Positions 633 through 50,829 of a DNA stretch of 64,000 nucleotides are shown in pieces. Below the pieces are notes generated by a model. The model saw nothing but the letters and a program-made list of their open reading frames with translations, did not search any database and was not told the DNA's origin. Origin of the DNA: Escherichia phage ECML-359; sequence record OL631482.1. The stretch is one strand, 5' to 3'. Numbering within the stretch: the stretch's first letter is position 1; each line of letters opens with the position of its first letter. Both the position numbers and the translations under genes were made by a program.

Positions 633-2612
633 ATGGCTTTATTATCCCCGGGCATTGAGCTCAAAGAAACAACGGTACAAAGCACTGTTGTTCGTAACGC
701 GACGGGTCGTGCGGCGCTGGTTGGTAAATTCCAGTGGGGCCCAGCTTTCCAGGTAACTCAAATTACAAACGAAGTTGAACTTGTTGATTTGTTTGGTGGT
801 CCGAATAATGAAACAGCAGATTACTTTATGAGTGGGATGAACTTCCTGCAATATGGTAACGACCTCCGTACTGTACGTGTTGTTAACCGTGACGAAGCTA
901 AAAACGCATCCCCTATTGCTGGCAATATTGAAACTACCATCGTAACTGCTGGTACAAACTATGCTGTCGGTGATGTTATTCAGGTTAAACACAACCAGAC
1001 TGTTGTTGAACCGGCTGGCCGTGTGACCAAGGTCGACGTTGATGGTAAAATTCAGGCAATCTTTATTCCTACCGATAAGATTATTGCATTTGCCAAAACT
1101 ATTAACCAGTATCCTAATTTAGGTAGTGCATGGACTGCAGAAGTTACGACCACTTCTTCCGGTGTATCTGGTACCATTACTGTTGGGAAAATTGTTACCG
1201 ATTCTGGCATTCTGTTGACTGAAGCAGAAAACAGTGAAGAAGCAATTACTTCCCTGGAATTCCAGGCATCACTGGCAAAATATGCAATGCCGGGTGTTGT
1301 TGCTCTTTACCCAGGCGAAATCGGTTCGACTCTGGAAGTTGAAATCGTATCTAAAGCTGAATTTGAAAAAGGCGCAGCTGCAAATCTGAATATTTTCCCG
1401 GGCGGCGGAACGCGTGCTTCTGTGGCTCGTGCCGTGTTTAACTATGGCCCTCAGTCTGAAAACCAATATGCAATTATCGTTCGCCGCGATGGTGCAATCG
1501 TCGAAAACGTTGTTTTGTCTACCAAGCAGGGCGAAAAAGATGTTTACGGTAATAACATTTATCTGGATGACTACTTTGCAAAAGGTACTTCCAACTACAT
1601 CTATGCAACATCTCGCAACTGGCCTGTAGGCTTCAGTGGTATCATCAATCTGTCTGGTGGTATTTCTGCAAACGATAAGATTACCGCTGGTGATTTGATG
1701 CAAGGTTGGGACCTGTTTGCTGACCGTGAAGCACTGCATATTAACCTGCTTATCGCTGGTGCAGTAGCTGGTGAAGGTGATGCGACTGCTTCCACTGTTC
1801 AGAAACACGTGGTTTCTATTGCTGACGAACGTCAGGATTGTCTGGCATTTATTTCCCCGCCGAAAGGTCTGTTGGTTAACGTTCCTCTGACCCGTGCAGT
1901 GGATAACCTGATTGACTGGCGTACAGGTGCTGGCGCATTTGATACTGATAACATGAATATCAGCACGACTTATGCAGCGATTGATGGCAACTATAAATAT
2001 CAGTATGATAAATATAATGACGTTAACCGTTGGGTTCCTCTGGCAGCTGATATGGCTGGTCTGTGTGCTCGTACTGATGACGTTTCTCAGCCTTGGATGT
2101 CTCCGGCCGGTTATAACCGCGGTCAGATTCTGAACGTTCTGAAATTGGCTGTTGAACCACGTCAGACCCAACGTGACCGCATGTATCAAGAAGCTATCAA
2201 CCCGGTTGTTGGTTTCGCAGGTGGTGATGGTTTTGTTCTGTATGGTGATAAGACTGCAACTAAAGTTCCATCTCCGATGGACCATATTAACGTTCGTCGT
2301 CTTACGAATATGCTGAAGAAAAATATCGGTGATGCATCTAAATATAAACTGTTTGAGCTTAACGATAACTTCACTCGTGCATCATTCCGTATGGAAACTT
2401 CTCAATACTTGGATGGTATTCGTGCACTTGGTGGCATTTATGAAGGTCGTGTAGTTTGTGATACTACTAACAACACCCCGTCGGTCATAGACCGAAATGA
2501 GTTTGTTGCTAGCATTTATTTTAAACCTGCACGCAGCATCAACTACATCACTCTTAACTTCGTAGCCACTAGCACTGGTGCTGATTTTGATGAGCTGATT
2601 GGGCCACAATAA
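633..2612 (+). CDS. 18: Tail sheath protein gp18
   Basis: 659 aa, same length as T4 gp18; N-terminus MALLSPGIELKETT...; preceded by late-promoter TATAAATA. Confidence 0.95.
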   Translation: MALLSPGIELKETTVQSTVVRNATGRAALVGKFQWGPAFQVTQITNEVELVDLFGGPNNETADYFMSGMNFLQYGNDLRTVRVVNRDEAKNASPIAGNIETTIVTAGTNYAVGDVIQVKHNQTVVEPAGRVTKVDVDGKIQAIFIPTDKIIAFAKTINQYPNLGSAWTAEVTTTSSGVSGTITVGKIVTDSGILLTEAENSEEAITSLEFQASLAKYAMPGVVALYPGEIGSTLEVEIVSKAEFEKGAAANLNIFPGGGTRASVARAVFNYGPQSENQYAIIVRRDGAIVENVVLSTKQGEKDVYGNNIYLDDYFAKGTSNYIYATSRNWPVGFSGIINLSGGISANDKITAGDLMQGWDLFADREALHINLLIAGAVAGEGDATASTVQKHVVSIADERQDCLAFISPPKGLLVNVPLTRAVDNLIDWRTGAGAFDTDNMNISTTYAAIDGNYKYQYDKYNDVNRWVPLAADMAGLCARTDDVSQPWMSPAGYNRGQILNVLKLAVEPRQTQRDRMYQEAINPVVGFAGGDGFVLYGDKTATKVPSPMDHINVRRLTNMLKKNIGDASKYKLFELNDNFTRASFRMETSQYLDGIRALGGIYEGRVVCDTTNNTPSVIDRNEFVASIYFKPARSINYITLNFVATSTGADFDELIGPQ

Positions 2613-2756
2613 TTATCATCGCTTAGAATGAATTAATCAGTTAGAAACCGTAGAACCATTATACAGTGGTATAAATAAAAGCATAATCGGTTCTACGGGC
2701 TCCTGTGGTTGATTCTGGGAAGCCATTATCTTGAGATGATGAATCATATTACCTAG

Positions 2757-8689: not shown

Positions 8690-8712
8690 TCCTAGATTAA
8701 GTTAAATAAAAA

Positions 8713-8740
8713 GGGACCCTTGAGGTCCCTTTCTTGTTTT
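8713..8740. terminator. Bidirectional intrinsic terminator between gene 23 and the opposite-strand ORF
   Basis: GGGACC-cttga-GGTCCC hairpin flanked by an A-run upstream and a T-run downstream. Confidence 0.8.
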
Positions 8741-9021
8741 CATACCATACCATTTAAATGAACTTCTACCCGGCGCTTGATGAGGTCTCTGAAGTTAACA
8801 TTGTTTTCTTGAAGTTTCAACCAGTTACCATTTTTATCTTTAGTGTGAGTAGAATAATTACCATTCCACCAGAAATCAGTGTCATATGCTAAGTTTTCAT
8901 ATTTTTTAACTAGTTTGTTCAGAGCATTACCATTAACACCATTTGGGTATTTGTTGACCAATGCAATAACTTCAATTTCCAATTTTTTAAAGGTGTTCAG
9001 AAGGAAAGTTGCTTTGTTCAT
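8740..9021 (-). CDS. Hypothetical protein, 93 aa, opposite-strand insert between genes 23 and 24
   Basis: Minus-strand ORF flanked by a bidirectional hairpin terminator (8713-8740) and an early-type promoter with conserved leader (about 9040-9092); no motif recognised. Confidence 0.5.
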   Translation of the reverse strand: MNKATFLLNTFKKLEIEVIALVNKYPNGVNGNALNKLVKKYENLAYDTDFWWNGNYSTHTKDKNGNWLKLQENNVNFRDLIKRRVEVHLNGMV

Positions 9022-9049
9022 TTTTAAACTCCAGGTTTTGTTTGTTAAC

Positions 9050-9092
9050 TCAGTATGGAATCATTATGTCTTATCTTAATCTGGTTGTAAAC
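9050..9092 (-). promoter_or_regulatory. Early-type sigma70 promoter (GTTTAC, 18 nt, CATAAT) with conserved leader
   Basis: Minus strand reads GTTTACaaccagattaagataagaCATAATGATTCCATACTGAGTTA upstream of ORF 8740-9021; coordinates approximate. Confidence 0.6.
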
Positions 9093-9098
9093 AACTTT

Positions 9099-9106
9099 TA
9101 TAAATA
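9099..9106 (+). promoter_or_regulatory. Late promoter for gene 24
   Basis: TATAAATA about 27 nt upstream of the gp24 ATG. Confidence 0.75.
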
Positions 9107-9132: not shown

Positions 9133-10413
9133 ATGGCAAAGATTAACAAATTACTGCGCGAGTCAACTATTACTACCAGCAACTCCTTGGGCCGCCCGAA
9201 TCTTGTTGCTTTGACCCGCGCTACGACTAAATTGATTTACCGCGATATCATCGCTGAACAACGTACTAACCAACCTGTTGCTGCACTGTATGGTGTTAAA
9301 TATCTTACTCCTGATAACGAATTCAGTTTCCAGACGGGCGCTACTTATGGAGGTGAAGTCGGTTCTAAAGACCGTACAACTATTCCAGAATTAGCTACAG
9401 CCACTCAGCCTGTTGCTAAAGGCGAATATGTAAAATACCAAAATATCGTTTACAAAGCTCTGGTTGATAATCCATTTGCATCGACCACAGAAACAGTGTT
9501 ATCTGATGTTCTGCAAGAAGGTCTTATTGCATCGACTATTCGTTTAGTTCCTGATGCTGCACACACCGAAAAATTCGAAGCTGGTGATGTTGAAATTAGC
9601 AATGCTGTATTCCAGGTTAATAAATGGAATGCTCCGGTTAAAACACGTAAATTGAAAACTGCATTAACTGTTGAACTTGCTCAGGATATGGAAGCAAATG
9701 GTTTTAACGCTCCTGCATTCTTGGAAGACCTGCTTGCCACTATTATGGCAGATGAAATTAACAAAGATGTTCTTCAGTCTCTTATTACCGTTTCCAAGCG
9801 TTATAAAGTAACTGGTGTTTCTGACAATGGCACCATCGATTTAACATACGATGCAGCCCCAGAAGGTGCACGTAAACTGTACGAACTGGTTTGCGAAATG
9901 AACTCCGAAATTCAGAAAACTACATCTTATTCCGGTACCTTTGTTGTTGCCTCTAGCCGTGTTGCTGCTATGTTGGCCGGTTCTGGTTGGTTGAAACACA
10001 GGCCAGAAGACGAACAGTGGCTCCCCGAAACAGCGTACGGTTATTTGATTAATGGCCTCCCTGTATTCTGTGATGTTAACAGTCCATTGGATTATGTAAC
10101 TGTTGGTGTTAAAGAAAATTACGGCGGAAACGAAGTCGTAGGCTCAATTTTCTATGCTCCTTATACCGAAGGCCTGGACTTGGATGATGAAGAGCACGTT
10201 GGTGCGTTTAAGGTCATTGTGGACCCAGACAGCTTGCAGCCATCTATCTCTCTGATGGTTCGTTACGCACTTTCAGCTAACCCGTACACCGTTGCTAAAG
10301 ACGATAAAGAAGCTCGTATTATCGATGCAACCAATATGGATTTAATGGCCGGTCAGAGCAATATGTCTTATCTGCTCGGTGTTAAACTTCCGCCAATCAT
10401 TTATGAGGCGTAA
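9133..10413 (+). CDS. 24: Capsid vertex protein gp24
   Basis: 426 aa; N-terminus MAKINKLLRESTITTSNSLGRPNLVALTRATTKLIY closely matches T4 gp24 as recalled; TATAAATA at about 9099-9106. Confidence 0.9.
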   Translation: MAKINKLLRESTITTSNSLGRPNLVALTRATTKLIYRDIIAEQRTNQPVAALYGVKYLTPDNEFSFQTGATYGGEVGSKDRTTIPELATATQPVAKGEYVKYQNIVYKALVDNPFASTTETVLSDVLQEGLIASTIRLVPDAAHTEKFEAGDVEISNAVFQVNKWNAPVKTRKLKTALTVELAQDMEANGFNAPAFLEDLLATIMADEINKDVLQSLITVSKRYKVTGVSDNGTIDLTYDAAPEGARKLYELVCEMNSEIQKTTSYSGTFVVASSRVAAMLAGSGWLKHRPEDEQWLPETAYGYLINGLPVFCDVNSPLDYVTVGVKENYGGNEVVGSIFYAPYTEGLDLDDEEHVGAFKVIVDPDSLQPSISLMVRYALSANPYTVAKDDKEARIIDATNMDLMAGQSNMSYLLGVKLPPIIYEA

Positions 10414-11697
10414 ATGCAAAAGATTAATGCACTAATTCACGAATCAACATTAACGGCGGCCAACCAGGTCGCCCGTCCTAATTTGCTTTCTTATACCCAG
10501 GCTACGAATAAACGAATTTTTAAAGCACTCGTGGCCGAACAGAAAACTACCCAGCCTGTTGCAGCCCTGTATGGTGTTCGTGTTCTGAACCCAGATGATA
10601 AAATGACTTATCTCGGTGGAGCAACATTTGCAGGTCAGATTGGTATGTTCGAGCGTAAGAATATTCCAGAATTTACAAACAAAGACGAAGCTTATGCAGT
10701 CGGCGATATGTTCCAGTTTGAAAGTGTTGTGTTCAAAGTTTTGGAAGCATCCCCATTCGCCGGTACACTCGAAACTGATTTAGGTGAAGTTATTTCTGAA
10801 GCCATTGCTGCTGGGCATATAAGAATGATGTCAGATGCTGCTTTCACTGATAAATTTGAAAAGGGGCATCCTGAAATTGCTGAAGCTGGTTTTCGTATCG
10901 ATAAATGGCAGACTGAAGTTAAATCCAGAAAGTTGAAAACTTCTTTAACTGTCGAGCTTGCCCAGGACCTGGAAGCAAACGGTTTTGATGCAACAGACTT
11001 CATCGATAATATTCTCGGCATTCAAATGGCAGAGGAAATTAATAAGGATGTACTGCAATCTCTTATTACTGTTAGTTCCCGTTTCAAGGTGCAAGGTGTT
11101 TCTGAAAAAGGTGTATTGAATCTTACTGACCCGAAATATGATAACGCACAGGACCGCGCACGAACCCTGTATTATTATATGTGTGAAATGAATTCTGCAG
11201 TTCAACGTCAGACTTCGTTTGCTGGTACATATGCAGTTGCTTCTTCCCGTTGTGCAGCTATTTTAGCCGCTTCTGGCTGGGTTGAGAAAAAGGAAGACCA
11301 GGATGAATTGGCCTATGGTGTTCTGAAGAACGGTTTGCCTCTTTACGCTGATATGAATAGTCCATGCGATTATGTTATTGTTGGTGTAAATGCAGATATG
11401 GGTGAAGGTCAGACGGTCGCATCTTTATATTATGCGCCTTATACGGAAGGACTTAGCGAAGTTGATGATGAGGGGGATACCTCGGTTGGGGAATTCAAGG
11501 TTATTGTTGACCCTGAAAGCTTACAGCCTACGGTTGCACTGTTAGCTCGTTATGCTTTGACTGCAAACCCTTACACCGTTGCTAAAGATGATAAAGAAGC
11601 TCGCCTTATTGATGGAGCTGATATGGATAAGATGGCTAACCAAAGCCAATTGAGTTCTTATCTTGGCGTTAAACTTCCACCGCTGGAAAAAGAATAA
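10414..11697 (+). CDS. Second, divergent gp24-like capsid vertex paralog
   Basis: 427 aa, starts one nucleotide after the stop of the first gene 24; clearly alignable to it (MQKINALIHESTLTAANQVARPNLLSYTQATNKRIF..., shared LQSLITVS, TANPYTVAKDDKEARLID) but diverged. Confidence 0.85.
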   Translation: MQKINALIHESTLTAANQVARPNLLSYTQATNKRIFKALVAEQKTTQPVAALYGVRVLNPDDKMTYLGGATFAGQIGMFERKNIPEFTNKDEAYAVGDMFQFESVVFKVLEASPFAGTLETDLGEVISEAIAAGHIRMMSDAAFTDKFEKGHPEIAEAGFRIDKWQTEVKSRKLKTSLTVELAQDLEANGFDATDFIDNILGIQMAEEINKDVLQSLITVSSRFKVQGVSEKGVLNLTDPKYDNAQDRARTLYYYMCEMNSAVQRQTSFAGTYAVASSRCAAILAASGWVEKKEDQDELAYGVLKNGLPLYADMNSPCDYVIVGVNADMGEGQTVASLYYAPYTEGLSEVDDEGDTSVGEFKVIVDPESLQPTVALLARYALTANPYTVAKDDKEARLIDGADMDKMANQSQLSSYLGVKLPPLEKE

Positions 11698-11720
11698 GGG
11701 CCTTGCGGCCCTTTTTTATT
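11698..11720 (+). terminator. Intrinsic terminator after the gp24 paralog
   Basis: GGGCC-ttgc-GGCCC followed by TTTTTTATT. Confidence 0.8.
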
Positions 11721-12723: not shown

Positions 12724-12820
12724 AATCTCTCACTTTTGATGTTATAAATATCATTATAAATTAGACCCGCTATACTTTCTTTCTTTGAAAGGAATTAATA
12801 GTCACAAAGGGTCTAGAACC

Positions 12821-12846
12821 ATTATACCGCATTTTTATTTGAAGCA
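12821..12846 (-). promoter_or_regulatory. Middle-type (MotA-box) promoter upstream of rnlB
   Basis: Minus strand reads TGCTTCAaataaaaatgcgGTATAATGGTTCTAGACCC: MotA-box-like TGCTTCA about 12 nt upstream of TATAAT; coordinates approximate. Confidence 0.6.
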
Positions 12847-12853
12847 AAAAGGG

Positions 12854-13117
12854 TCAGAATTTTACATACAGCATTGGCTTGGATTCTTGCCAATCATAAT
12901 TCCAGGTAAAAGATGTAAATTTTTCTGCTCGCAGAAATTCAGATATCTTTGCGCGGTTTCCTTCTTCATACTCTTTTTCAGAAACTGCCATATTAACAGC
13001 ATCTTTGCCGTTCTCGGCGGCGGCAATAGCCACTTTGCGAAATATAGAAATAAAGTCATTTGCAACTTTATCTTGTGACTCTTTGGCTATTTGGCGTAGT
13101 TCTTCTGCGAATGTCAT
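12854..13117 (-). CDS. Hypothetical protein (T4 24.2 position)
   Basis: 87 aa minus-strand ORF between hoc and rnlB; overlaps next ORF by 4 nt. Confidence 0.5.
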   Translation of the reverse strand: MTFAEELRQIAKESQDKVANDFISIFRKVAIAAAENGKDAVNMAVSEKEYEEGNRAKISEFLRAEKFTSFTWNYDWQESKPMLYVKF

Positions 13118-13317
13118 TTCTTCACCTTTTTGTTATTCAAACGTTTACGATAAACAATCTTTTCTTTCGCTTTAAATTTAGCTTTGGCTTGTTCTACATC
13201 AACCCAGGCCTTTGCCATCTCTTTAGCAGTCCCGCCTAATACCTTGGCGATTTCAATAAATGTCATACCAGATTCATGCAGAAAATGTACTTTAACCTTA
13301 TCCATAATGATTCTCAT
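13114..13317 (-). CDS. Hypothetical small basic protein, possible helix-turn-helix (T4 24.3 position)
   Basis: 67 aa; segment MTFIEIAKVLGGTAKEMAKAWVD resembles an HTH; lysine-rich C-terminus. Confidence 0.5.
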   Translation of the reverse strand: MRIIMDKVKVHFLHESGMTFIEIAKVLGGTAKEMAKAWVDVEQAKAKFKAKEKIVYRKRLNNKKVKK

Positions 13318-13451
13318 GTTGAGTTAGTGAAGCTATCTTAACATGGAATTTTTAACTTGTAAACATGATTTTTATGCCAGATGAACAATTGCATGGTATG
13401 GTCACAAAGACTCACTAGAGAAGGGTCCAGGTAACATTTGCCCAGTACCAT

Positions 13452-13480
13452 AAAAATAAAGGGACCAAAGGTCCCTTTTT
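13452..13480. terminator. Bidirectional intrinsic terminator downstream of hoc
   Basis: GGGACC-aaa-GGTCCC flanked by A-run and T-run. Confidence 0.75.
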
Positions 13481-13482
13481 AA

Positions 13483-14616
13483 TTAATAAACGTAATCGTA
13501 TATAATACCAGTTTCTAAAGCGGTGCGATGAATAACTCGACCATTACGAGATTCTTGTACATCAACCTCTGGATAGTCGGTAATCATTTTTTGAAGTGTG
13601 TATCGGTGCAAATAATACGGGCTATCCGGGTCATCAGTTTTCCAGTCTTGGCCGGCAAGAGTCATTTTCTGAATTTCATCCATAACCCACCAACCACACC
13701 AGATATAAGCTGAATTACGTACTGGCAATGGGTGAATATATGGTAATTCGCCATCTGGAACTGGTGCGACTTTAGCCGTGACTGTTACATTACCAGTTTT
13801 GGTAACGGTTACAGGGTTATAATCTGTAGCAGATACAACAACAGAAACTTCAATTAACTGGGAACCTTCGGCGCTTGTATCGATTGCTAAAGTATCCGTG
13901 GTACCAGCGACTGGTGAACCATCTTTCTTCCAAGAATAGGCAAAAGTAGCACCAGCAGGCGCACCGGCTACAGTAGCTTTAAAAGAAGCCGGAGTTCCTT
14001 CAGGAACATTAATAGAGGTCGGTGCTAAAGTAACAGAAACACCCGACATAGTTTTCTTAACAAAAGTTACCGCAGCTCCTTTAGATGCGGTGCCATTATT
14101 ATAATCGGGTGCAGAAACAGTAACTTCACAGTTCAATGTATAATTTGCTTCTGCTGATTCGGTGACGGTAATAGTTTTACCAGTTTGACCTGCGATTACG
14201 CTAGTGTTACGTTTCCAAACGTAAGCGATTGTTGCACCAGAAGGAGCGCCTGTCACGTTAGCAGTAACAACTTGAGATTGCCCCACTTCTTTAGTAACAG
14301 AGGCAGGGTCTAAAGTCAATGTAATAGCAGGCATTGTTTTATTCTGGATAGTTAAAGTTGTCTCAGCCTCAGCAGTTTCCGGTTCACCGTCTGCCGGAGT
14401 GGTAGTTGCAACAACTTTAATAGTCTTACTGCCTGCTGGGCCAACAGCGACATAAGTCATTGCTGCAGTCACAGAAGATTGAGGAACGCCATCAACGGTC
14501 CATACAAATGATTCAACACCTTCAGCTGCAGCGCCAGACCCGGTTGCAGTGAAATTGGTTGTTGCTCCAATAACGGCCGTAGCCGCCAAAGGAGCAATAG
14601 CTACGGTATAAGCCAT
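13483..14616 (-). CDS. hoc: Highly immunogenic outer capsid protein Hoc
   Basis: 377 aa; C-terminal part near-identical to T4 Hoc as recalled (NPVTVTKTGNVTVTAKVAP...YIWCGWWVMDEIQKMT...YYLHRYTLQKM); repeated Ig-like segments. Confidence 0.9.
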   Translation of the reverse strand: MAYTVAIAPLAATAVIGATTNFTATGSGAAAEGVESFVWTVDGVPQSSVTAAMTYVAVGPAGSKTIKVVATTTPADGEPETAEAETTLTIQNKTMPAITLTLDPASVTKEVGQSQVVTANVTGAPSGATIAYVWKRNTSVIAGQTGKTITVTESAEANYTLNCEVTVSAPDYNNGTASKGAAVTFVKKTMSGVSVTLAPTSINVPEGTPASFKATVAGAPAGATFAYSWKKDGSPVAGTTDTLAIDTSAEGSQLIEVSVVVSATDYNPVTVTKTGNVTVTAKVAPVPDGELPYIHPLPVRNSAYIWCGWWVMDEIQKMTLAGQDWKTDDPDSPYYLHRYTLQKMITDYPEVDVQESRNGRVIHRTALETGIIYDYVY

Positions 14617-18111: not shown

Positions 18112-18139
18112 AATGTATCCAATGTAAGGGTCTAGAACC

Positions 18140-18166
18140 ATTATACAGCCATAAAATTAAAGCATT
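18140..18166 (-). promoter_or_regulatory. Middle-type (MotA-box) promoter upstream of uvsY
   Basis: Minus strand reads aaTGCTTTAattttatggctgTATAATGGTTCTAGACCC; same cassette as at rnlB. Confidence 0.6.
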
Positions 18167-18554
18167 AACCGTTTTGACTTAACTGAATCCTAATTTGTTC
18201 GAGGGTATCAGGGTCATCAACAATGCTGAACTGAACCGTTACGATAATGGAGTTATCATCATACATAGGGACAACTGCAACCTGTAGATTACTTATTCTT
18301 GGTTCGAAGTTCCGCACCGCGGAGACGATGTTGCGTTTAATGGTATCTGTAATTAACGGTGTGATATTCTCAAAAAGCTGATTACTTATATCACATCCAA
18401 ATTCGGGCATAAAAGGCCGTGACCCTTTTCTTGTGGTGATTATTCCCAGAAGACTGTTCTTAACAGACCTTGCACCAGTTACTTTAGCAACGTCTTTATC
18501 CCAACTTGTAGATAAGTTGGGAGATACATCGCTATACATTTTGTTTATATTCAT
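18165..18554 (-). CDS. 25: Baseplate wedge protein gp25
   Basis: 129 aa; MNINKMYSD...TRKGSRPFMPEFGCD matches T4 gp25 as recalled. Confidence 0.9.
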   Translation of the reverse strand: MNINKMYSDVSPNLSTSWDKDVAKVTGARSVKNSLLGIITTRKGSRPFMPEFGCDISNQLFENITPLITDTIKRNIVSAVRNFEPRISNLQVAVVPMYDDNSIIVTVQFSIVDDPDTLEQIRIQLSQNG

Positions 18555-24463: not shown

Positions 24464-25422
24464 TGTTTACTTTACAAGAATTCCAAACGCAGGCGATTAA
24501 TATCGACTTACAAAGGAATAACCTTTTTAGTGTGGTCTTCGCGACCACACCTTCCTCCAAATCTCAGAATCTTCTGGACCAGTTTGGTGGCGCATTATTC
24601 AGCAACCTTCCTGTTAACTCAGATTGGTTTGGTTTAACGCAAGGCGACTTAACTCAAGGGATAACAACTCTTGTTACTGCTGGGACACAAAAGCTTATTC
24701 GCAAATCAGGGATAAGCAAATATCTTATCGGGGCAATGAGTAACCGTGTTGTGCAATCATTATTGGGGGAATTCGAGGTTGGTACTTACCTGCTTGATTT
24801 CTTTAATATGGCCTATCCAACGGCTGGTCTATTGGTCCACTCTGTTAAGCTTCCGGATAACACGTTGAACTACGAAATGGACCTCAACCATAACGCACCA
24901 AATATCAAGATAACAGGAAGAGAATATTCTCCATTGGTATTGAGCTTTAGAATGGATTCAGAGGCAGGGAACTACAGAGCATTTAACGATTGGGTTAACT
25001 CTGTGCAAGACCCAGTTACCCAGCTAAGGGCCTTGCCTGAAGACGTTGAAGCTGATATTCAGGTTAACCTTCACTCACGTAATGGATTGCCGCATACGGT
25101 TGTTATGCTAACTGGTTGTGTTCCTGTAAGTGTATCAGCGCCTGAATTGAGTTATGAAGGGGATAATCAGATAGCTACATTTGATGTGACTTTTGCTTAT
25201 CGCGTTATGTCAACTGGTGCGGTGGGAAGAGCTGCTGCATTGGAATGGTTAGAAGATAAGGTTATTAAGGGTGTATCTGGTATTAGTTCAGATAATAACT
25301 TGAACGCCGAAGTTGCCAAATTGAGTCGCTTGTCTGGTGCTCAATCTGGATTAACAAGTCTATACAATACGTTCACTGGTTCTGGGAGAACAATCTCCGG
25401 TGGAAGTCAACGTATATTATAA
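24463..25422 (+). CDS. 54: Baseplate tail-tube initiator gp54
   Basis: 319 aa; ATGA overlap with gene 48; followed by a strong hairpin terminator. Confidence 0.85.
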   Translation: MFTLQEFQTQAINIDLQRNNLFSVVFATTPSSKSQNLLDQFGGALFSNLPVNSDWFGLTQGDLTQGITTLVTAGTQKLIRKSGISKYLIGAMSNRVVQSLLGEFEVGTYLLDFFNMAYPTAGLLVHSVKLPDNTLNYEMDLNHNAPNIKITGREYSPLVLSFRMDSEAGNYRAFNDWVNSVQDPVTQLRALPEDVEADIQVNLHSRNGLPHTVVMLTGCVPVSVSAPELSYEGDNQIATFDVTFAYRVMSTGAVGRAAALEWLEDKVIKGVSGISSDNNLNAEVAKLSRLSGAQSGLTSLYNTFTGSGRTISGGSQRIL

Positions 25423-25429
25423 AAAGAAA

Positions 25430-25454
25430 GGGACCCGAAGGTCCCTTTTTATTT
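25430..25454 (+). terminator. Intrinsic terminator after gene 54
   Basis: GGGACC-cgaa-GGTCCC followed by TTTTTATTT. Confidence 0.85.
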
Positions 25455-25739
25455 GCGGAATGAAATGAAACCTGCTGCAGTCATTACAGCTTCTTTCTTA
25501 GCAAAGACTGTAATTGCAATTGGTGCTTCAGATTCAAGTTGTCCAGTTACTACACCATTAAAAATATTTTCTGTTTGTTCAGAATTTACAAAGTTTTCAA
25601 CAGGGCGAAGGTCAAACTTCTTATCTTCACCAAATACACGGCGCAATTCATTACCCACCGCGCTGTCAAACTCTTCTGAAGCCGGGATAACATTCTCAAC
25701 TACCAGTTCCTGACCGTTAAAGCGAAAAGATGATTTCAT
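25449..25739 (-). CDS. Hypothetical protein (T4 alt-upstream region)
   Basis: About 96 aa from the internal ATG (MKSSFRFNGQ...), which has a GAGGAAA ribosome-binding site; an early-type promoter lies upstream. Confidence 0.5.
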   Translation of the reverse strand: MKSSFRFNGQELVVENVIPASEEFDSAVGNELRRVFGEDKKFDLRPVENFVNSEQTENIFNGVVTGQLESEAPIAITVFAKKEAVMTAAGFISFRK

Positions 25740-25802
25740 TTTGTTTTCCTCATGTGTAATTGATATGAACATTGTATCGCACTTCCTTGTGCTTGTAAAC
25801 CC

Positions 25803-32184: not shown

Positions 32185-32553
32185 TTATGCGACTTTAATC
32201 CAATTATCTAAATTTAATTCACCTTTAGCTTTCATTTTTTCAATCAGAAGGTCTGCAGTGGTGCGACCATTTTGATACCATGTAACATCTTCAGAATAAC
32301 CAGTTTCTTCATCTTCATAGGTCTTACAACGAATCTTACCCAAAATCAAAGTTTTCAGTTCGTAGGTATCACCAGTAAAAAAGTTTGTTACCATAATTTT
32401 CCAGGAGAAGTCATCAGAAGGACCTTCAGGAGTCATACAACCAACAAATTCAAACTGTTCTTTATACAAGTGCCATTGCATTTCTTTAGTTTCAATGGCT
32501 TTGTAACCGTCGTGGTCTTTACCTTTGATGTATGAGTTAAGATTGATTTTCAT
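32185..32553 (-). CDS. Hypothetical protein
   Basis: 122 aa; preceded by an early-type promoter with the conserved 23-nt leader. Confidence 0.55.
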   Translation of the reverse strand: MKINLNSYIKGKDHDGYKAIETKEMQWHLYKEQFEFVGCMTPEGPSDDFSWKIMVTNFFTGDTYELKTLILGKIRCKTYEDEETGYSEDVTWYQNGRTTADLLIEKMKAKGELNLDNWIKVA

Positions 32554-32589
32554 TTTATTCTCCAGTGTTTTATTGTGTAACTCAGTATG

Positions 32590-32624
32590 GAATCATTATG
32601 CACTGGGCAAATCCTGTTGTAAAC
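32590..32624 (-). promoter_or_regulatory. Early-type promoter with conserved 23-nt leader, upstream of ORF 32185-32553
   Basis: Minus strand reads GTTTACaacaggatttgcccagtgCATAATGATTCCATACTGAGTTAC. Confidence 0.6.
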
Positions 32625-32633
32625 CCCTTTATG

Positions 32634-32663
32634 GAAAATAAAAAAGGGACTCCGAAGAGTCCC
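32634..32663 (-). terminator. Intrinsic terminator after the small basic ORF
   Basis: Minus strand reads GGGACTC-ttcg-GAGTCCC followed by TTTTTTATTTT. Confidence 0.8.
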
Positions 32664-32668
32664 TGAAC

Positions 32669-35727: not shown

Positions 35728-36269
35728 CAGATTGTCTCCTGTTTAACTTGTTTAACGATAGAAACTTTTGCGATATCGCCTTTGATAATATAGCAATCTT
35801 CTGCAGTACCACGGTTTAACAGACGCTCGGCTTCGCCTTCCGCATATTCTTTTGACACATGACGAGAGTTAATCTCAATCTTGCCATTTTTAACCACAAG
35901 CAATTTCCAAACTGATGCAAGTTTTACTGGCACAGGTTCAACTTCTGGCTTAACACCAACTTCCGCCTGGATGAAATAATCAAATTCATCTGACAATGGA
36001 CCAGCGGAAACAAACATTGCTCCACGATGCCTATTCTGTGCGCCAGATATTTTTGCCAAATCCACAAAATCATTTTCATCAATCAAACGAATCTCACAAA
36101 CTTTTTTACCGCCGCTAACAGTATCAGGTAAAATCTTAACTTCAAACGGAGTCATACCGATGTATCCAGCAATTTGGTAATTAGCTGCCCAACCACCGGA
36201 GACAAATTGTTTTTTGGCATTTTCAGATACAAATTTGTAAAACTTACCTTCTTCAAAGAAATTACTCAT
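35727..36269 (-). CDS. Hypothetical protein, 180 aa (cd.x cluster)
   Basis: GAGGAAAACAAA ribosome-binding site and early-type promoter upstream. Confidence 0.55.
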   Translation of the reverse strand: MSNFFEEGKFYKFVSENAKKQFVSGGWAANYQIAGYIGMTPFEVKILPDTVSGGKKVCEIRLIDENDFVDLAKISGAQNRHRGAMFVSAGPLSDEFDYFIQAEVGVKPEVEPVPVKLASVWKLLVVKNGKIEINSRHVSKEYAEGEAERLLNRGTAEDCYIIKGDIAKVSIVKQVKQETI

Positions 36270-36329
36270 TTTGTTTTCCTCATGTGTCGATGAAATTCAT
36301 TATACACCATCCGTGGTGAAAGTAAACAC

Positions 36330-37084: not shown

Positions 37085-37085
<1 letters not shown>
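36888..37085 (-). CDS. Hypothetical protein (cd.x cluster)
   Basis: 65 aa ORF directly downstream of pseT. Confidence 0.45.
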
Positions 37086-38303
<1,218 letters not shown>

Positions 38304-40101: not shown

Positions 40102-40335
40102 TTAGTAGCGGTTATAACCCCGGGGACCAAAAGAGTTGGCACCCAGGCGCTCATCTTTCTTTTTGGCTCTTGCTCTAAACCCAGAATCACCTGTTTGAGC
40201 TTTCAGTTCTTTTAACAATTTGGCCTTCAGGTCAGTAATGAAACCAATCCGGCGGTCTCCCTTGTAGACATAGATTCCATCATTTCTGTCACCATATGCC
40301 TGTGTAACTCTTTCATTTGTAATTAAGTTTAACAT
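40102..40335 (-). CDS. Small ORF paralogous to the N-terminal module of the downstream alc-like gene
   Basis: 77 aa; LITNERVTQAYGDRNDGIYVYKGDRRIGFITDLKAKL vs LISNEMIVNEYGDRHDGIYVYKGTKKIGLMTDLRKKL; early-type promoter upstream. Confidence 0.5.
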   Translation of the reverse strand: MLNLITNERVTQAYGDRNDGIYVYKGDRRIGFITDLKAKLLKELKAQTGDSGFRARAKKKDERLGANSFGPRGYNRY

Positions 40336-40406
40336 GTTTTAGTCCTCATCAGTAGTTGATGGAACCATTATGTATAGAAAGGAGGGGCTTGTACACCCCT
40401 TTTTTA

Positions 40407-45449: not shown

Positions 45450-45482
45450 GTTTTCCTCTATAGTTCAAAAGGGTTGGGAACC

Positions 45483-45728
45483 TTAAATTGTCTCTGGCAG
45501 TTCCGAAGACATTTCATCATTATATTCTTCTTCTGACTGGACGGTGATGTCAAAATATGACTGGACGTCACCGGCTGCATCATGACAGTAGACACGTTCA
45601 TGACGTTTGGCCAGAAATTTGATTCCGTCAATAGTGATATAAGAATTTGGTGCCGGTAAATCCTGTTCGGTAAATTGTATCATTTCAAAAATGACTTCGC
45701 CAGTCTGGCGTTTAAATCGTAAATTCAT
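45483..45728 (-). CDS. Hypothetical protein (nrdA-td intergenic cluster)
   Basis: 81 aa ORF. Confidence 0.5.
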   Translation of the reverse strand: MNLRFKRQTGEVIFEMIQFTEQDLPAPNSYITIDGIKFLAKRHERVYCHDAAGDVQSYFDITVQSEEEYNDEMSSELPETI

Positions 45729-45787
45729 AATTTCCTCTCATTAAATTTTAAATAATTATATCACAGTGCCCTGAAGCGGAATCGTAT

Positions 45788-46087
45788 TTATGTTCCCAAA
45801 TCCTCGAGCGAAAAGGTGTCTTTGAAAAGTTTATTAACGACCAGGGCGATAACATCACCATGACATGACTTTGGTTTGCATGTACAGGCTAATCGCATTC
45901 CGCGGAGGGTTTCAAGGTGTTCTCTTTTAATTTCACCCGATTTAATCTTTGATATGAAATATTCTTTAAAGTTCTTTATGTTTTCTTCTCGGGTACCATC
46001 TTTATATGGGTTTCCCCACATGGTACCCCGTTGAATATTCACATCAAAGTCAGATTGATATTTGTTAACAACCCGACATGCTTTCAT
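45788..46087 (-). CDS. Hypothetical protein, possibly DUF4326-like
   Basis: 99 aa; WGNPY...ACTCKPKSCHGDV resembles the DUF4326 signature as I recall it; unverified. Confidence 0.5.
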   Translation of the reverse strand: MKACRVVNKYQSDFDVNIQRGTMWGNPYKDGTREENIKNFKEYFISKIKSGEIKREHLETLRGMRLACTCKPKSCHGDVIALVVNKLFKDTFSLEDLGT

Positions 46088-46148
46088 AGTAGGAAGTTAA
46101 GTCCGACCATTACGACCAGAAATAAAATACCGGCAATTTGAATTTTCA

Positions 46149-46345
46149 TTAGACCTCGACAATAAACCAGATAGACCGATTGAAATCATCATATTCATAC
46201 GATTTAACCACACGCATAACATAAAGTTCTTTGTTCTGGACAAAAATCGTTGTTTTCTCTTTAGGCAGTTCATCGAGACTTATGTTCATTTTTTCAAACA
46301 GCACCTCATTGGTACCGTATCTATTGTTTACTATACGAATATTCA

Positions 46346-48584: not shown

Positions 48585-48827
48585 TCAAACAGACTTTTTC
48601 ACAATTTTCCAGTCAGCTTTAAATTGGTCAACATCAGAGTGGTGAATCCAGAAACCAGATGAGCTACCATCTTCATAAAGAGGGCAACCATCACACTCAT
48701 CTTTCCAACCCATTGCACACAAAGTTTCTTCAGCTTTTTCCAGAGCTTCTGGATTGTTACCCTGGATTGTGAAGTACCATTTACCTTTAACTTCTGAATC
48801 TTTGATGCTCTCACGTTGTAATTTCAT
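48585..48827 (-). CDS. Hypothetical protein (frd.x cluster)
   Basis: 80 aa; early-type promoter upstream. Confidence 0.5.
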   Translation of the reverse strand: MKLQRESIKDSEVKGKWYFTIQGNNPEALEKAEETLCAMGWKDECDGCPLYEDGSSSGFWIHHSDVDQFKADWKIVKKSV

Positions 48828-48885
48828 TTTATTCTCCTCAAGTTGGTAAGGCTATAGTATCATTACCATAGCCTGTTGTAAACAT

Positions 48886-49131
48886 TTATTTTTGGATTAA
48901 GCCCATATAAAATTCAGCATCTTCAACATGCATACCATCACAATACTCGTCAGTCATAAAACGAGTAAGGTCTTCAAGAGGACCTTGGATTTCAATTTGG
49001 ATACTGAAGAATTGGGTATCTTTAATATAAGTCATACTCAAAGAAGGATAACGATTACGGATAACTTCGTAAGTGTATTCAAAATCAACAATATCAATAT
49101 TAACTTTAGCCATTTTATTTTCCTCACTCAT
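48886..49131 (-). CDS. Hypothetical protein (frd.x cluster)
   Basis: 81 aa ORF. Confidence 0.5.
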
Positions 49132-49180
49132 TAGTTGATAGGTCTATAATAACATAATCATAGACATTATACACTACTTT

Positions 49181-49447
49181 TTAAATTTTGTCGAGCCATT
49201 TACCAAGTTTGGTCATTTCTTTGGTAGCTTTTTCCAGACTTCTGAACTTGACTAACAAAGGATAAGTATCTACACCCATAACTAAAGTGGTTACAAGACT
49301 ATGCTCGCCTACAAGCCATAGAGAATACGTTTGAACATCAAGTCCGTAATTTCGGTCTTTATGGACACGTACACCCATCACTTCAAACTGTTCGCTGGCT
49401 TTTTCTACTGCATCCAGGAAATCATCTTTAGTCATATTAAATTCCAA
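49181..49447 (-). CDS. Hypothetical protein (frd.x cluster)
   Basis: 88 aa ORF. Confidence 0.5.
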   Translation of the reverse strand: MEFNMTKDDFLDAVEKASEQFEVMGVRVHKDRNYGLDVQTYSLWLVGEHSLVTTLVMGVDTYPLLVKFRSLEKATKEMTKLGKWLDKI

Positions 49448-49802
49448 AGGTAGCTTTAATCAAGGCAATGACTTCAGCAGCATTTTTGTGATTAACCTGC
49501 ACATGAATGGTTTGCGTGTCAACAACAGGAGCATCTTCATCAACTTCCAGGAAGTGGCGGAATTCCCATTCAGCGAGTTCAAAGTACTCATCAGCATCAT
49601 CCATACTATCCAAGATGGTACCATCTTTCATTTCAACTTTTTCAACAAAATAATCGCCATCAATAAAGCACATATCCAGGACTTTGAAGGAACTGCCATG
49701 CTGTTCCATCAGCTTGACCATGCGCGAATTATCATCAGGACTACCAGCGATGAAATGTTTTTTAGCAGCAGGGTCTAATACGTAAGTTTTACCAGTTTCC
49801 AT
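49437..49802 (-). CDS. Hypothetical protein (frd.x cluster)
   Basis: 121 aa; preceded by an early-type promoter with the conserved 23-nt leader. Confidence 0.5.
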   Translation of the reverse strand: METGKTYVLDPAAKKHFIAGSPDDNSRMVKLMEQHGSSFKVLDMCFIDGDYFVEKVEMKDGTILDSMDDADEYFELAEWEFRHFLEVDEDAPVVDTQTIHVQVNHKNAAEVIALIKATFGI

Positions 49803-49839
49803 TTTGATTTCCTCGGTTGTTTATCGTGTAACTCAGTAT

Positions 49840-49885
49840 GGAATCATTATGCCTTAGCTCAAAGGACTTGTACACTACTTTTTGA
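49840..49885 (-). promoter_or_regulatory. Early-type promoter with conserved 23-nt leader, upstream of ORF 49437-49802
   Basis: Minus strand reads GTGTACaagtcctttgagctaaggCATAATGATTCCATACTGAGTTAC. Confidence 0.55.
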
Positions 49886-49912
49886 AAATAAAAAAGGGAC
49901 CCGAAGGTCCCC
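49885..49912 (-). terminator. Intrinsic terminator after gene 32
   Basis: Minus strand reads GGGACC-ttcg-GGTCCC followed by TTTTTTATTTT. Confidence 0.85.
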
Positions 49913-49917
49913 TTATA

Positions 49918-50829
49918 TTAAAGGCCAGCCAGAAGGTCGTCAAGACCATCATCAGAAGGCTCTGGAGTGCTTGGAGCAGTCGCAGTGCGTTCAGACTTAG
50001 CAGGTTTACTGGAAGTGAAATCTTCCATATCTTTATCAAAATCGTCCAGGTCAGCGCCCAGTTTATCAGCTTGTGCAGCAGCTTTAGAAGCAGCACCGCC
50101 GAGAGCAGCCGTACCCATTACTTTAGAGAATTTCTTCTGATTCTCTTCAAGGGATTTAAACACCAGCAATTCATTCAGGTCAGACATTTCGTCCCAAAGT
50201 TTTTTCTGGAATGCTTCATCATTGATACCAGCGATTTCGGACTGGTTCATGAATTTGGAATCATCGTAGTTTTTATAACCGGAAACCAGTTTAGATTTCA
50301 GTACAAAGTTTGCACCTTCAAAAGGACAAGTTACGTCAATAGCTGTTTCGCCCATGTCAACATCGACTTCAACCATCTGGTTAATTTTGTCCATGATTTT
50401 CTTGCCGAAGCGATATTTGAATACTTGGCCTTCGTTAGACGGAACAGCAGGGTCTTTAATGACCAGGATGTTAGCCCAGTAAGAAGTATTACGCTTCAGT
50501 TTACGATATTCGGATTCGTTTGTATTGTACAGGTCATTCTTATTCATGTACGCACACACAGGGCAGTTTTCATAGTCACCGTGAGTGGAAGTACAGTTTT
50601 CAATATACCATTGACCCGCATTTTTAAAGCCGTGGTTAACGAGCTTAATGAACGGAGATGGATTTTCTTCATTCTTAGAAGGCAGGAAACGAATAACCGC
50701 AGAGCCGACGCCATCAGTATCTTTCAGTTTCCATTCTTTTTTATCGTCAGAAGAGAAACCAGAACCACCTTTCAGAGCGTTAAGGGAAGCAGCCAGGTCA
50801 GCAGGGTTTTTACGTTTAAACATAGACAT
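49918..50829 (-). CDS. 32: Single-stranded DNA-binding protein gp32
   Basis: 303 aa; [17 protein letters not shown]...[15 protein letters not shown]...[10 protein letters not shown] matches T4 gp32; acidic C-terminus. Confidence 0.95.

What the first reader, a model, noticed from the sequence alone, without database searches (positions are those of the whole stretch)
9040..9063. Identical 23-nt promoter/leader element repeated at three distant loci
The sequence TAACTCAGTATGGAATCATTATG (plus strand) occurs at about 9040-9063, 32578-32600 and 49828-49851, each time on the upstream side of a minus-strand ORF. Read on the minus strand it is CATAATGATTCCATACTGAGTTA, i.e. a -10 hexamer plus about 17 nt of transcribed leader, preceded by a GTTTAC/GTGTAC -35. 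Exact conservation of the leader is not expected from promoter function alone. It suggests either a conserved RNA or protein recognition element, or recent spread of a mobile regulatory cassette of the promoter-early-stem-loop type that I recall being described in T4-type phages.
Basis: partly seen in the sequence, partly recalled or inferred. Interest (0 to 1): 0.5.

Follow-up and report, generated by a model that had tools for sequence, protein, structure and literature searches.

The report
Repeated early-promoter cassettes in a T4-type phage
The repeated 23-mer is the -10 box and start site of a family of portable early promoter cassettes in a VR7-like T4-type coliphage, a known kind of element (PeSL) at which these phages gain, lose and swap small genes.

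Summary
The 23-mer is present exactly three times, at 9046-9068, 32578-32600 and 49829-49851, with none expected by chance. The window is a Gaprivervirus (VR7/SP18-like T4-type coliphage). On the minus strand each copy is the -10 hexamer CATAAT, a 5-nt discriminator, and a 12-nt start-site core CATACTGAGTTA. These lie in an 85-110 nt cassette: terminator stem-loop (copies B and C only), A-rich tract, GT(G/T)TACA, a 17-nt variable spacer, the 23-mer, an unstructured A/C-rich leader, GGAG, ATG.

The three downstream genes are unrelated (ORF190c, 30.8, frd.2), so this is not a coding duplication. Related genomes hold 6-7 exact copies and 9-13 cassette-like places.

The cassette matches the published PeSL description. 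Evidence for exchange:
- A 369-bp gene indel among VR20/VR25/VR26 has its junction inside the core.
- The cassette is about 90% identical in a Morganella phage with unrelated flanks.
- The same promoter is joined to different genes in several cases.
- Leader types alternate at orthologous loci.
- Orthologous promoters in other genera lack the module.

So the identity reflects lineage-specific spread by recombination. No RNA fold is present. Why the 12-nt core stays invariant is unexplained. This is a new member of a known kind, of modest interest.

The parts
9046..9068 (-). Copy A of the 23-mer: -10 hexamer CATAAT (9068-9063), discriminator GATTC (9062-9058), core CATACTGAGTTA (9057-9046); predicted +1 is the A at 9056
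9022..9106 (-). Cassette A: A/T-rich tract overlapping the divergent + strand late promoter TATAAATA (9099-9106) of gene 24(1), -35 GTTTACA (9092-9086), 17-nt spacer, the 23-mer, leader ACAAACAAAACCT, SD GGAG (9032-9029). No upstream stem-loop.
8740..9021 (-). 93-aa ORF driven by cassette A (VR7ORF190c homologue, phrog_6003, unknown function), antisense between late genes 23 and 24(1)
8708..8734 (.). Bidirectional terminator-like stem-loop closing gene 23 (+) and the 93-aa ORF (-)
32578..32600 (-). Copy B of the 23-mer (-10 CATAAT at 32600-32595)
32554..32664 (-). Cassette B: terminator stem-loop AGGGACTCTTCGGAGTCCCT plus T-run (32664-32635) ending gene 30.9, then CCATAAAGGG, -35 GTTTACA (32624-32618), spacer, the 23-mer, leader CACAATAAAACACT, GGAG, AATAAA, then the ATG of 30.8
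32185..32553 (-). Gene 30.8 (Pfam Phage_30_8), driven by cassette B
49829..49851 (-). Copy C of the 23-mer (-10 CATAAT at 49851-49846)
49803..49914 (-). Cassette C: gene 32 terminator AAGGGGACCTTCGGGTCCCTTT plus T-run (49914-49884), AAAAAGTA, -35 GTGTACA (49875-49869), spacer, the 23-mer, leader CACGATAAACAACC, GAGG, then the ATG of frd.2
49437..49802 (-). frd.2 (Pfam FRD2), driven by cassette C
49111..49185 (-). Sibling early promoter with the type-2 leader (AAAAAGTA GTGTATA, 16 nt, TATTAT, agacc, TATCAACTAATGAG) driving frd.3. The same promoter drives frd.2b in SP18.
48825..48883 (-). Sibling early promoter with the type-2 leader (GTTTACA, 17 nt, TACTAT, agcct, TACCAACTTGAGG) driving frd.1. 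The SP18 orthologue carries the CATACTGAGTTA core instead.
40335..40396 (-). Sibling early promoter: GTGTACA, 17 nt, CATAAT, ggttc, CATCAACTACTGATGAGG (type-2 leader)

Best explanation
Each 23-mer is the -10 hexamer, the discriminator and the first ~11 transcribed bases of a sigma-70 early promoter. The promoter sits in a compact expression cassette of the PeSL (promoter-early stem-loop) type. The parts, in order, are: an intrinsic terminator that ends the upstream unit (copies B and C); an A-rich UP-like tract; GT(G/T)TACA; a free 17-nt spacer; CATAAT-GATTC-CATACTGAGTTA; an unstructured A/C-rich leader; GGAG; ATG. Host RNA polymerase would fire these promoters immediately after infection to express small early genes (ORF190c, 30.8, the frd.2 cluster).

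The three copies are identical because the -10/start-site module is a discrete unit. Within the Gaprivervirus lineage, and also in Gualtarvirus, it has been copied between promoters by short-homology recombination or gene conversion. It then serves as a crossover point at which ORFs are inserted, deleted or re-associated with other promoters.

Shown here: the architecture, the copy numbers, the unrelated downstream genes, an indel junction inside the core, cassette identity across genera with unrelated flanks, and replacement of the module at orthologous promoters.

Inferred: the transcription start at the A of cATACTG, early timing, promoter and terminator activity, and recombination as the spreading mechanism.
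For: Architecture: the -35/17 nt/-10 arrangement and the terminators are called at all expected positions, and alignments of 26 exact copies show them too.

Family size: VR20, VR25 and VR26 hold 6-7 exact 23-mers per genome, all on one strand. Gaprivervirus genomes hold 9-13 cassette-like places each.

Not a coding duplication: identity ends at the ATG. The downstream proteins fall in different families: no Pfam family / phrog_6003, Phage_30_8, and FRD2.

Exchange:
- VR26 lacks a 369-bp ORF-plus-promoter segment present in VR20 and VR25. The junction lies exactly in the repeated CCATACTGAGTTA..CAAATAAA, fusing the promoter of one cassette to the leader and gene of the next.
- The roughly 85-nt cassette is about 90% identical between VR26 and Morganella phage MP1, including 14 of 17 spacer positions, while both flanking genes are unrelated.
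- Near-identical spacer-defined promoters precede different protein families in at least 4 cases.
- The frd.2 promoter carries the core in the window and VR26 but CATCAACT(G/A)CTGAT in VR7 and SP18. The frd.1 promoter shows the reverse pattern. frd.2a and frd.3 are present or absent between cassettes.
- SP18 has gene 30.6A, with its own stem-loop, inserted next to copy B.

Lineage-specific spread: orthologous promoters of copy A in JS10 and PhAPEC2, and of copy B in PinkRuby and Klebsiella PhiKpNIH-6, keep the terminator, -35 and SD. From the -10 onwards they have TACTAT or TAGTAT followed by TATCAA or TTACAC instead.

Discreteness: among 52 distinct early-type promoters found without using the core, 28 match it exactly, 1 has one mismatch, none have 2-4 mismatches, and 23 have 5 or more.

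The published PeSL description matches.
Against: No transcript or reporter data exist for these sites, so the TSS, timing and strength are inferred. Copy A lacks the stem-loop. Between the window and VR7, none of the larger indels (five distinct regions) lies at the three copies, so shuffling at these particular copies is only seen against SP18 and as leader swaps. Most related loci were retrieved with the core or the 23-mer as the query, which inflates the share of exact copies. Recombination alone does not explain why the core stays invariant while the adjacent hexamer and discriminator vary.
Confidence: 0.8

Rival explanations
1. The 12-nt core CATACTGAGTTA (-1 to +11) is a specific cis-element, either in the DNA or at the mRNA 5' end. 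It would be recognised by a phage or host factor, for example a factor that shuts off or modulates a subset of early promoters, or a start-site/escape or sigma-dependent pause signal (cATACT is -10-like). Selection for that recognition would keep it invariant. This is compatible with the cassette reading.
For: The core sits at a fixed 5-nt distance from the hexamer in every promoter-context copy. It stays exact while the hexamer (CATAAT, TATAAT, TATTAT) and the discriminator (GATTC, TATCC, GTTCC, GGTCC, AAACC, GATTT) vary, including in Morganella phage MP1. The mismatch distribution is bimodal with no decayed intermediates. In sibling cassettes the spacer carries its inverted repeat, so two half-sites flank the -10. 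The T4 review states that the cause of early-promoter shut-off is still unknown (PMC2988021).
Against: No candidate factor has been identified. The window's three copies have no second half-site. Other early promoters in the same genome work with different leaders. Orthologous promoters in other genera lack the core. The invariance is partly a retrieval artefact. Stem-loops overlapping the -10 are an already described PeSL subclass.
Confidence: 0.2
2. There is no exchange. The three copies are independently retained ancestral promoters, kept identical by purifying selection for an optimal strong promoter and initial transcribed sequence.
For: T4 early promoters are known to carry consensus beyond the -35 and -10 (PMC2988021), and a preference for C at -3 to -1 has been described for RB69, RB49 and 44RR (PMC1524935). 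From memory, strong T5 early promoters also share downstream-region homology.
Against: Orthologues of copies A and B in Dhakavirus, Mosigvirus, a T4-like coliphage and a Klebsiella phage carry a different -10/start module in otherwise alignable cassettes. The frd.2 and frd.1 loci are polymorphic for the module within the genus. So the shared 23-mer is derived, not ancestral.
Confidence: 0.07
3. The leader folds into a conserved RNA structure such as a stabiliser hairpin, riboswitch or sRNA.
For: None beyond the conservation itself.
Against: Five leaders, folded from +1 to about +20 of the coding sequence, have energies of -1.6 to -2.9 kcal/mol and z-scores of +0.1 to +1.4. They are no more structured than shuffled controls. 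No Rfam family reaches threshold anywhere in the window.
Confidence: 0.03
4. The copies are remnants of segmental duplications that include coding sequence, or they encode a + strand micro-ORF (ATGGAATCATTATG.., MESLC..).
For: A + strand ATG lies inside the 23-mer. ORF 8879-9079 (+) overlaps copy A.
Against: The flanking genes are unrelated. By direct reading of the + strand at the three copies, the micro-ORFs have no SD and their tails differ: 11, 11 and 15 codons, ending in the -35 box in copies A and B (the copy C stop lies past it). The longer + strand ORF exists at copy A only.
Confidence: 0.01

Closest known systems
PeSL (promoter-early stem-loop) cassettes of RB49/phi1 (Arbiol, Comeau, Krisch 2010, PMC2839356)
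   Same: Both are composite intergenic elements with a stem-loop terminator, an AT-rich tract, a sigma-70-type -35/17 nt/-10 promoter, then SD and ATG. Both have many copies per genome conserved over about 100 bp, lie next to small ORFs, and flank indels between close relatives. In RB49/phi1, crossovers were mapped between the -10 and the SD/ATG; the VR20/VR25/VR26 junction lies in the same interval. Sibling cassettes here have the stem-loop overlapping the -10, a subclass described for phi1.
   Different: The sequences differ: RB49/phi1 use TTGACA/TATAAT with G-run/C-run stems, while these use GT(G/T)TACA/CATAAT with GGGACC..GGTCCC stems. About 10 copies per genome carry this leader, against about 50 PeSLs in RB49/phi1. 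Here the exactly conserved part is a discrete -10/start-site module with a free spacer. Mini-circles and promoter or terminator activity are untested. Copy A has no stem-loop.
PeSLs of PST/T4 and nt-1/KVP40 (Comeau, Arbiol, Krisch 2014, PMC4122927)
   Same: The T-even version has the consensus TTTACW, N17, TAYWAT with the stem-loop just upstream of the promoter and SD/ATG at the 3' end. This is the layout of copies B and C. It includes 'half' or degraded elements and a single PeSL next to an indel.
   Different: The VR7/SP18 group was not analysed in that paper. A conserved transcribed core is not mentioned in the parts of the paper read here.
T4 early promoters (Pe)
   Same: They share GTTTAC at -35, an A-rich UP element, a near-consensus -10, extra consensus beyond the hexamers, and C-rich -3 to -1 positions in relatives.
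   Different: Orthologous T4-like promoters (RB14 frd.1, PinkRuby 30.8) carry TACTAT or TAGTAT followed by TATCAACT or TTACAC, not CATAAT-GATTC-CATACTGAGTTA.
Conserved promoter-containing elements flanking T-even internal-protein (IP) genes (Repoila et al. 1994, as cited in PMC2839356)
   Same: They are early-promoter-based repeats that bound a shuffling gene set in T-even phages.
   Different: They are confined to the IP loci and are known here only from the citation. They were not compared at sequence level.
Morons of lambdoid phages
   Same: Cassette A plus its ORF and terminator forms a self-contained transcription unit. It is inserted antisense between two late genes.
   Different: Moron flanks are not conserved repeats and are not thought to mediate their own mobility (discussion in PMC2839356).

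Membership tests
PeSL cassette | Sigma-70-type early promoter: -35 and -10 boxes about 17 nt apart | tested here: met
   TTTACA or TGTACA, 17 nt, CATAAT at all three copies (9-10 of 12 positions match)
PeSL cassette | [quoted passage not shown] | tested here: met
   TTTTATTTTCAAAAAGTA (C), TTTTATTTTCCATAAAGGG (B), TTTATTTATAAAAGTT (A)
PeSL cassette | Stem-loop (terminator/attenuator) adjacent to or overlapping the promoter | tested here: inconclusive
   Present in B (8 pairs plus T-run) and C (9 pairs plus T-run). Absent in A. Sibling cassettes have a 10-11 bp stem spanning the -10, with z-scores of -4.3 and -6.8.
PeSL cassette | Shine-Dalgarno sequence and start codon of the downstream gene at the 3' end | tested here: met
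   GGAG or GAGG lies 6-8 nt before the ATG in all copies
PeSL cassette | Many copies per genome with conservation spread over about 100 bp | tested here: met
   3 copies in the window; 6-7 exact 23-mers and 9-13 cassette-like places per related genome
PeSL cassette | Preferential location in hyperplastic regions next to small non-essential ORFs | tested here: inconclusive
   B and C lie in the 30.x and frd clusters of small early ORFs, while A lies inside the head-gene block. Only 64 kb was examined, and no statistical test was made.
PeSL cassette | Indels or replacements between close relatives with junctions in or at the element | tested here: met
   369-bp indel in VR20/VR25 vs VR26 with its junction in the core. 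Promoter/gene re-associations. frd cluster compared between the window and SP18. 30.6A insertion in SP18. However, no window-vs-VR7 indel lies at the three copies.
PeSL cassette | Demonstrated promoter and terminator activity; formation of mini-circles | not testable with these tools
   Needs reporter fusions and inverse PCR on infected cells, as in PMC2839356
T4-type early promoter (Pe) | GTTTAC-like -35, A-rich UP tract, near-consensus -10, host sigma-70 dependent | tested here: met
   Sequence features are met. Sigma-70 dependence and early timing are not testable here.
MotA-dependent middle promoter | MotA box (a/t)(a/t)TGCTT(t/c)A centred at -30 in place of the -35 | tested here: not met
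   The three copies have GT(G/T)TACA and no TGCTT. True MotA-box promoters occur elsewhere in the window, with -10 hexamers at 2663-2658, 12826-12821 and 18145-18140, and have a different downstream motif.
Structured RNA leader / Rfam family | Conserved secondary structure or a match to a curated RNA family | tested here: not met
   z-scores of +0.1 to +1.4 for five leaders; no Rfam hit in the window

The most novel reading that the evidence does not exclude
The invariant 12-nt start-site core CATACTGAGTTA, and a parallel CATCAACTACTG family, may be a discrete, exchangeable regulatory module that defines sub-classes of early promoters. It would be read by a still unidentified phage or host factor, or by RNA polymerase itself during escape or pausing. 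It could then bear on the open question of how T4-type early promoters are differentially boosted and shut off.
Probability: 0.2. Interest if true: 0.6.

Novelty: new member of a known kind. Interest (0 to 1): 0.3.

Why it matters
This extends the PeSL concept to the VR7/SP18 group (Gaprivervirus) and to a Morganella phage. It gives a base-resolved example of a gene indel whose junction lies inside the repeated promoter core. It also shows that the exchanged unit can be smaller than the cassette: a -10/start-site module that replaces the ancestral one at orthologous promoters.

Practically, the motif marks early transcription units and likely gene-insertion sites in phages used for therapy and engineering. 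The cassettes are candidate strong, compact expression modules. If the core proves to be a recognition element, it would give a handle on sub-classes of early promoters.

Tried and rejected
- RNA structure of the leader: five leaders folded, none more stable than shuffled controls. Rejected.
- Rfam scan of the whole window: no hit.
- Coding duplication: rejected by alignment and by the families of the downstream proteins.
- + strand micro-ORF in the 23-mer: no SD and non-conserved tails. Rejected by reading the sequence.
- MotA middle promoter: no MotA box.
- IHF-type site in the core: compared with the consensus by eye, no match. Not pursued.
- Window vs VR7 indel map: five indel regions, none at the three copies. 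So shuffling had to be shown against SP18 and in VR20/VR25/VR26.
- Literature search for the motif string and for VR7 promoter work: no relevant paper in the library. The MP1 paper only lists 12 promoters found by MEME.
- 16-17-mer scans of IMG/VR also returned 10 chance hits in unrelated contigs with no promoter context. Discarded.
- The information-content profile of copies retrieved by the core is circular for the core itself. It was replaced by a census that does not use the core.
- A whole-genome census in one relative was not done. Per-genome counts rest.

Full report
OBSERVATION. The 23-mer TAACTCAGTATGGAATCATTATG is present exactly three times on the + strand, at 9046-9068, 32578-32600 and 49829-49851. 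There is no additional site even with three mismatches allowed, and no match in 100 shuffles. The first coordinate in the finding is about 6 nt too low. Each copy lies just upstream of a minus-strand ORF: 8740-9021, 32185-32553 and 49437-49802.

CONTEXT. The window is a T4-type coliphage of the genus Gaprivervirus, the group of VR7, VR20, VR25, VR26 and SP18. It is 98-99% identical to MN01, TH22, TH55 and UPEC07 at the loci tested. On the VR7 map the window runs from gene 18 through the head and baseplate genes, alt, 30, the 30.x cluster, cd, pseT, nrdAB, td, frd and 32, then onwards.
- Copy A lies between the late genes 23 and 24(1). It faces a 93-aa ORF of unknown function (VR7ORF190c, phrog_6003).
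- Copy B lies between 30.9 and 30.8 (Pfam Phage_30_8).
- Copy C follows the gene 32 terminator and precedes frd.2 (Pfam FRD2).

ANATOMY. Read on the minus strand, each copy is the -10 hexamer CATAAT, a 5-nt discriminator GATTC and a 12-nt core CATACTGAGTTA. TTTACA or TGTACA (within GT(G/T)TACA) lies 17 nt upstream.
- Upstream there is an A-rich tract. In B and C there is also a G+C-rich stem-loop with a T-run that ends the preceding gene. Copy A has no stem-loop; its A/T tract overlaps the divergent late promoter TATAAATA of gene 24(1).
- Downstream there is an A/C-rich leader, GGAG or GAGG, and the ATG.
- The 17-nt spacer differs completely between the copies, and identity ends at the start codon.
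- With the usual 7-nt distance, and the C-rich -3 to -1 positions reported for T4-type early promoters (PMC1524935), the predicted +1 is the A of cATACTG. So about 11 of the 23 nt are transcribed, not about 17.

THE FAMILY OUTSIDE THE WINDOW. An exact scan of IMG/VR found 6-7 copies of the 23-mer per genome in VR26, VR20 and VR25, all on one strand. BLAST with the whole cassette gave 9-13 places per Gaprivervirus genome. The 12-nt core, always 5 nt after a -10 hexamer and with the same AAAAAGTA-GTGTACA upstream part, also occurs in other phages:
- Morganella phage MP1 (Gualtarvirus), at least 5 copies. Its authors annotated 12 promoters found by MEME.
- A Dhakavirus (IME341).
- A Tequatrovirus record (ECp13).
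- Phage fDHCT2.
In these copies the hexamer (CATAAT, TATAAT, TATTAT) and the discriminator vary, but the core does not. Ten other hits of the 16-17-mers in unrelated contigs have no promoter context and are chance matches.

The copies are not part of longer duplications with coding sequence. The flanking genes are unrelated at DNA level and at protein level.

EVIDENCE THAT THE CASSETTE IS AN EXCHANGE MODULE.
(i) In a tandem cluster, VR20 and VR25 carry a 369-bp segment (a 98-aa ORF plus the next promoter) that VR26 lacks. The junction falls exactly in the repeated CCATACTGAGTTA..CAAATAAA. VR26 therefore keeps the promoter of one cassette (TATAATTATC) fused to the leader and gene of the next.
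(ii) Between VR26 and Morganella phage MP1, the cassette from the stem-loop to the core is about 90% identical, with 14 of 17 spacer positions matching. The genes on both sides are unrelated.
(iii) Near-identical spacer-defined promoters precede different protein families in at least four cases.
(iv) At the frd.2 locus the window and VR26 have the core. VR7 and SP18 have CATCAACT(G/A)CTGAT in an otherwise orthologous cassette. At frd.1 the pattern is reversed: SP18 has the core, and the window has TACCAACTTGAGG. SP18 has frd.2a and lacks frd.3. The promoter TATTAT-agacc-TATCAACTA drives frd.2b in SP18 but frd.3 in the window.
(v) SP18 has gene 30.6A, with its own stem-loop, inserted between the 30.9 terminator T-run and the copy B promoter.
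Against this, the five indel regions between the window and VR7 do not touch the three copies.

THE 23-MER IS DERIVED, NOT ANCESTRAL. The orthologous promoter of copy A in JS10 (Dhakavirus) and PhAPEC2 (Mosigvirus) keeps the late promoter, the A/T tract, GTTTACA and the SD. From the -10 onwards it reads TACTAT-AGAC(C/T)-TATCAA. The orthologous promoter of copy B in PinkRuby and in Klebsiella phage PhiKpNIH-6 keeps the terminator, GTTTACA and GGAGAATAAAATG, but has TAGTAT or TATAGT followed by ..CTTACAC. T4-like RB14 and a Mosigvirus have TATCAACTAAGGAG-type leaders at frd.1. So the -10/start-site module was introduced into several promoters within the Gaprivervirus lineage, which is concerted evolution. 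A census of early-type promoters that does not use the core found 52 distinct sequences: 28 with the exact core, 1 with one mismatch, none with 2-4, and 23 with 5 or more. The last group falls mostly into a second discrete family, CATCAACTACTG. One caveat applies: most loci were fetched with the core as the query. The two unbiased stretches (the window and 50 kb of VR7) show the same all-or-none pattern.

WHAT THE CORE DOES. It is not an RNA fold. Five leaders are no more stable than shuffled controls (z +0.1 to +1.4), and Rfam finds nothing in the window. The leaders look selected for openness around the SD. In sibling cassettes that lack an upstream terminator, the spacer carries the inverted repeat TCAGTATGG(G/A). 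This gives a 10-11 bp stem spanning the -10 (z -4.3 and -6.8), a PeSL subclass described for phi1. The window's copies have no such stem. Why the core stays exact while its neighbours vary is open. Possible causes are start-site or escape optimisation, a sigma-dependent pause (cATACT is -10-like; inference only), a binding site for an unknown factor, or simply efficient homogenisation. The T4 review notes that extra consensus exists in early promoters and that the cause of early shut-off is unknown (PMC2988021).

COMPARISON WITH KNOWN SYSTEMS. The element works like, and by its features belongs to, the PeSL class (PMC2839356, PMC4122927). The promoter, AT tract, SD/ATG, multi-copy and indel-junction features are met. 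The stem-loop is met in B and C but not in A. Location bias is inconclusive. Activity and mini-circles are untestable here. It is not a MotA middle promoter; those occur elsewhere in the window with their own shared motif. The motif string was not found in the searchable literature, and the VR7/SP18 group was not covered in the PeSL papers.

VERDICT. This is a new member of a known kind. It adds two modest results: a discrete, exchangeable -10/start-site module and a base-resolved recombination junction. Interest is 0.3. The reading that the core is a true recognition element has a probability of about 0.2.

Noticed in passing
window 2653-2692, 12816-12855, 18135-18174 (minus strand): Three MotA-box middle promoters (TGCTT at about -30) share TATAATGGTTCTA, two of them followed by GACCC, downstream of the -10. 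This is a second repeated promoter-plus-start-site family. At 2651-2692 it lies back to back with a + strand late promoter TATAAATA.
   Followed up: partly
window 13303-13326 (+ strand); VR7 L044 13665-13690: A degenerate inverted copy of the element (CATAATGATTCTCATGTTGAGTTA) overlaps the start codon of gene 24.3 on the minus strand and is conserved in VR7. The -35-like TGTACT lies only 11-12 nt upstream, so it is probably not a working promoter. It sits about 60 nt from the site where VR7 carries two extra + strand genes (ORF196w/197w).
   Followed up: partly
window 25736-25766 and 36266-36296 (minus-strand leaders): A third repeated leader family, ..ACACATGAGGAAAACAAAATG, lies downstream of two further early-type promoters (-10 hexamers at 25776-25771 and 36304-36299).
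   Followed up: no
window 40362-40396, 49146-49174, 48854-48883; L017, L025, L044, L051: A discrete type-2 start-site module, (C/T)A(T/C)CAACT(A/G)CTG.., occupies the same register as the core in other early promoters and alternates with it at orthologous loci.
   Followed up: partly
window 8705-8737, 11688-11720, 13451-13483, 25421-25453, 49887-49919: A family of terminator-like stem-loops (GGGACC or GGGCC, 4-6-nt loop, GGTCCC or GGCCC), flanked by A-runs on one side and T-runs on the other.
   Followed up: no
window 9133-10413 and 10414-11697: Two tandem paralogues of the head vertex gene 24 (24(1) and 24(2)), as in VR7. They share a 197-nt stretch at 72% identity.
   Followed up: no
window 2603-2627, 13382-14353, 37085-37101, 45459-46337 vs VR7: Relative to VR7, the window lacks gene 19.1, ORF196w/197w (a collagen-like and a Hoc-like gene) and a mobE-like homing endonuclease. 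It has about 880 bp of extra small ORFs between nrdA and td.
   Followed up: partly
L003/L005/L011 (VR26/VR20/VR25 tandem cluster); L020/L029 (Morganella MP1): A 13-member set of small proteins (71-147 aa; MKTSKLVKYV.. is its representative) is repeatedly found downstream of core-bearing cassettes in both Gaprivervirus and Gualtarvirus. The 3' ends of several of these genes are also similar (..SYASNFRK..).
   Followed up: no
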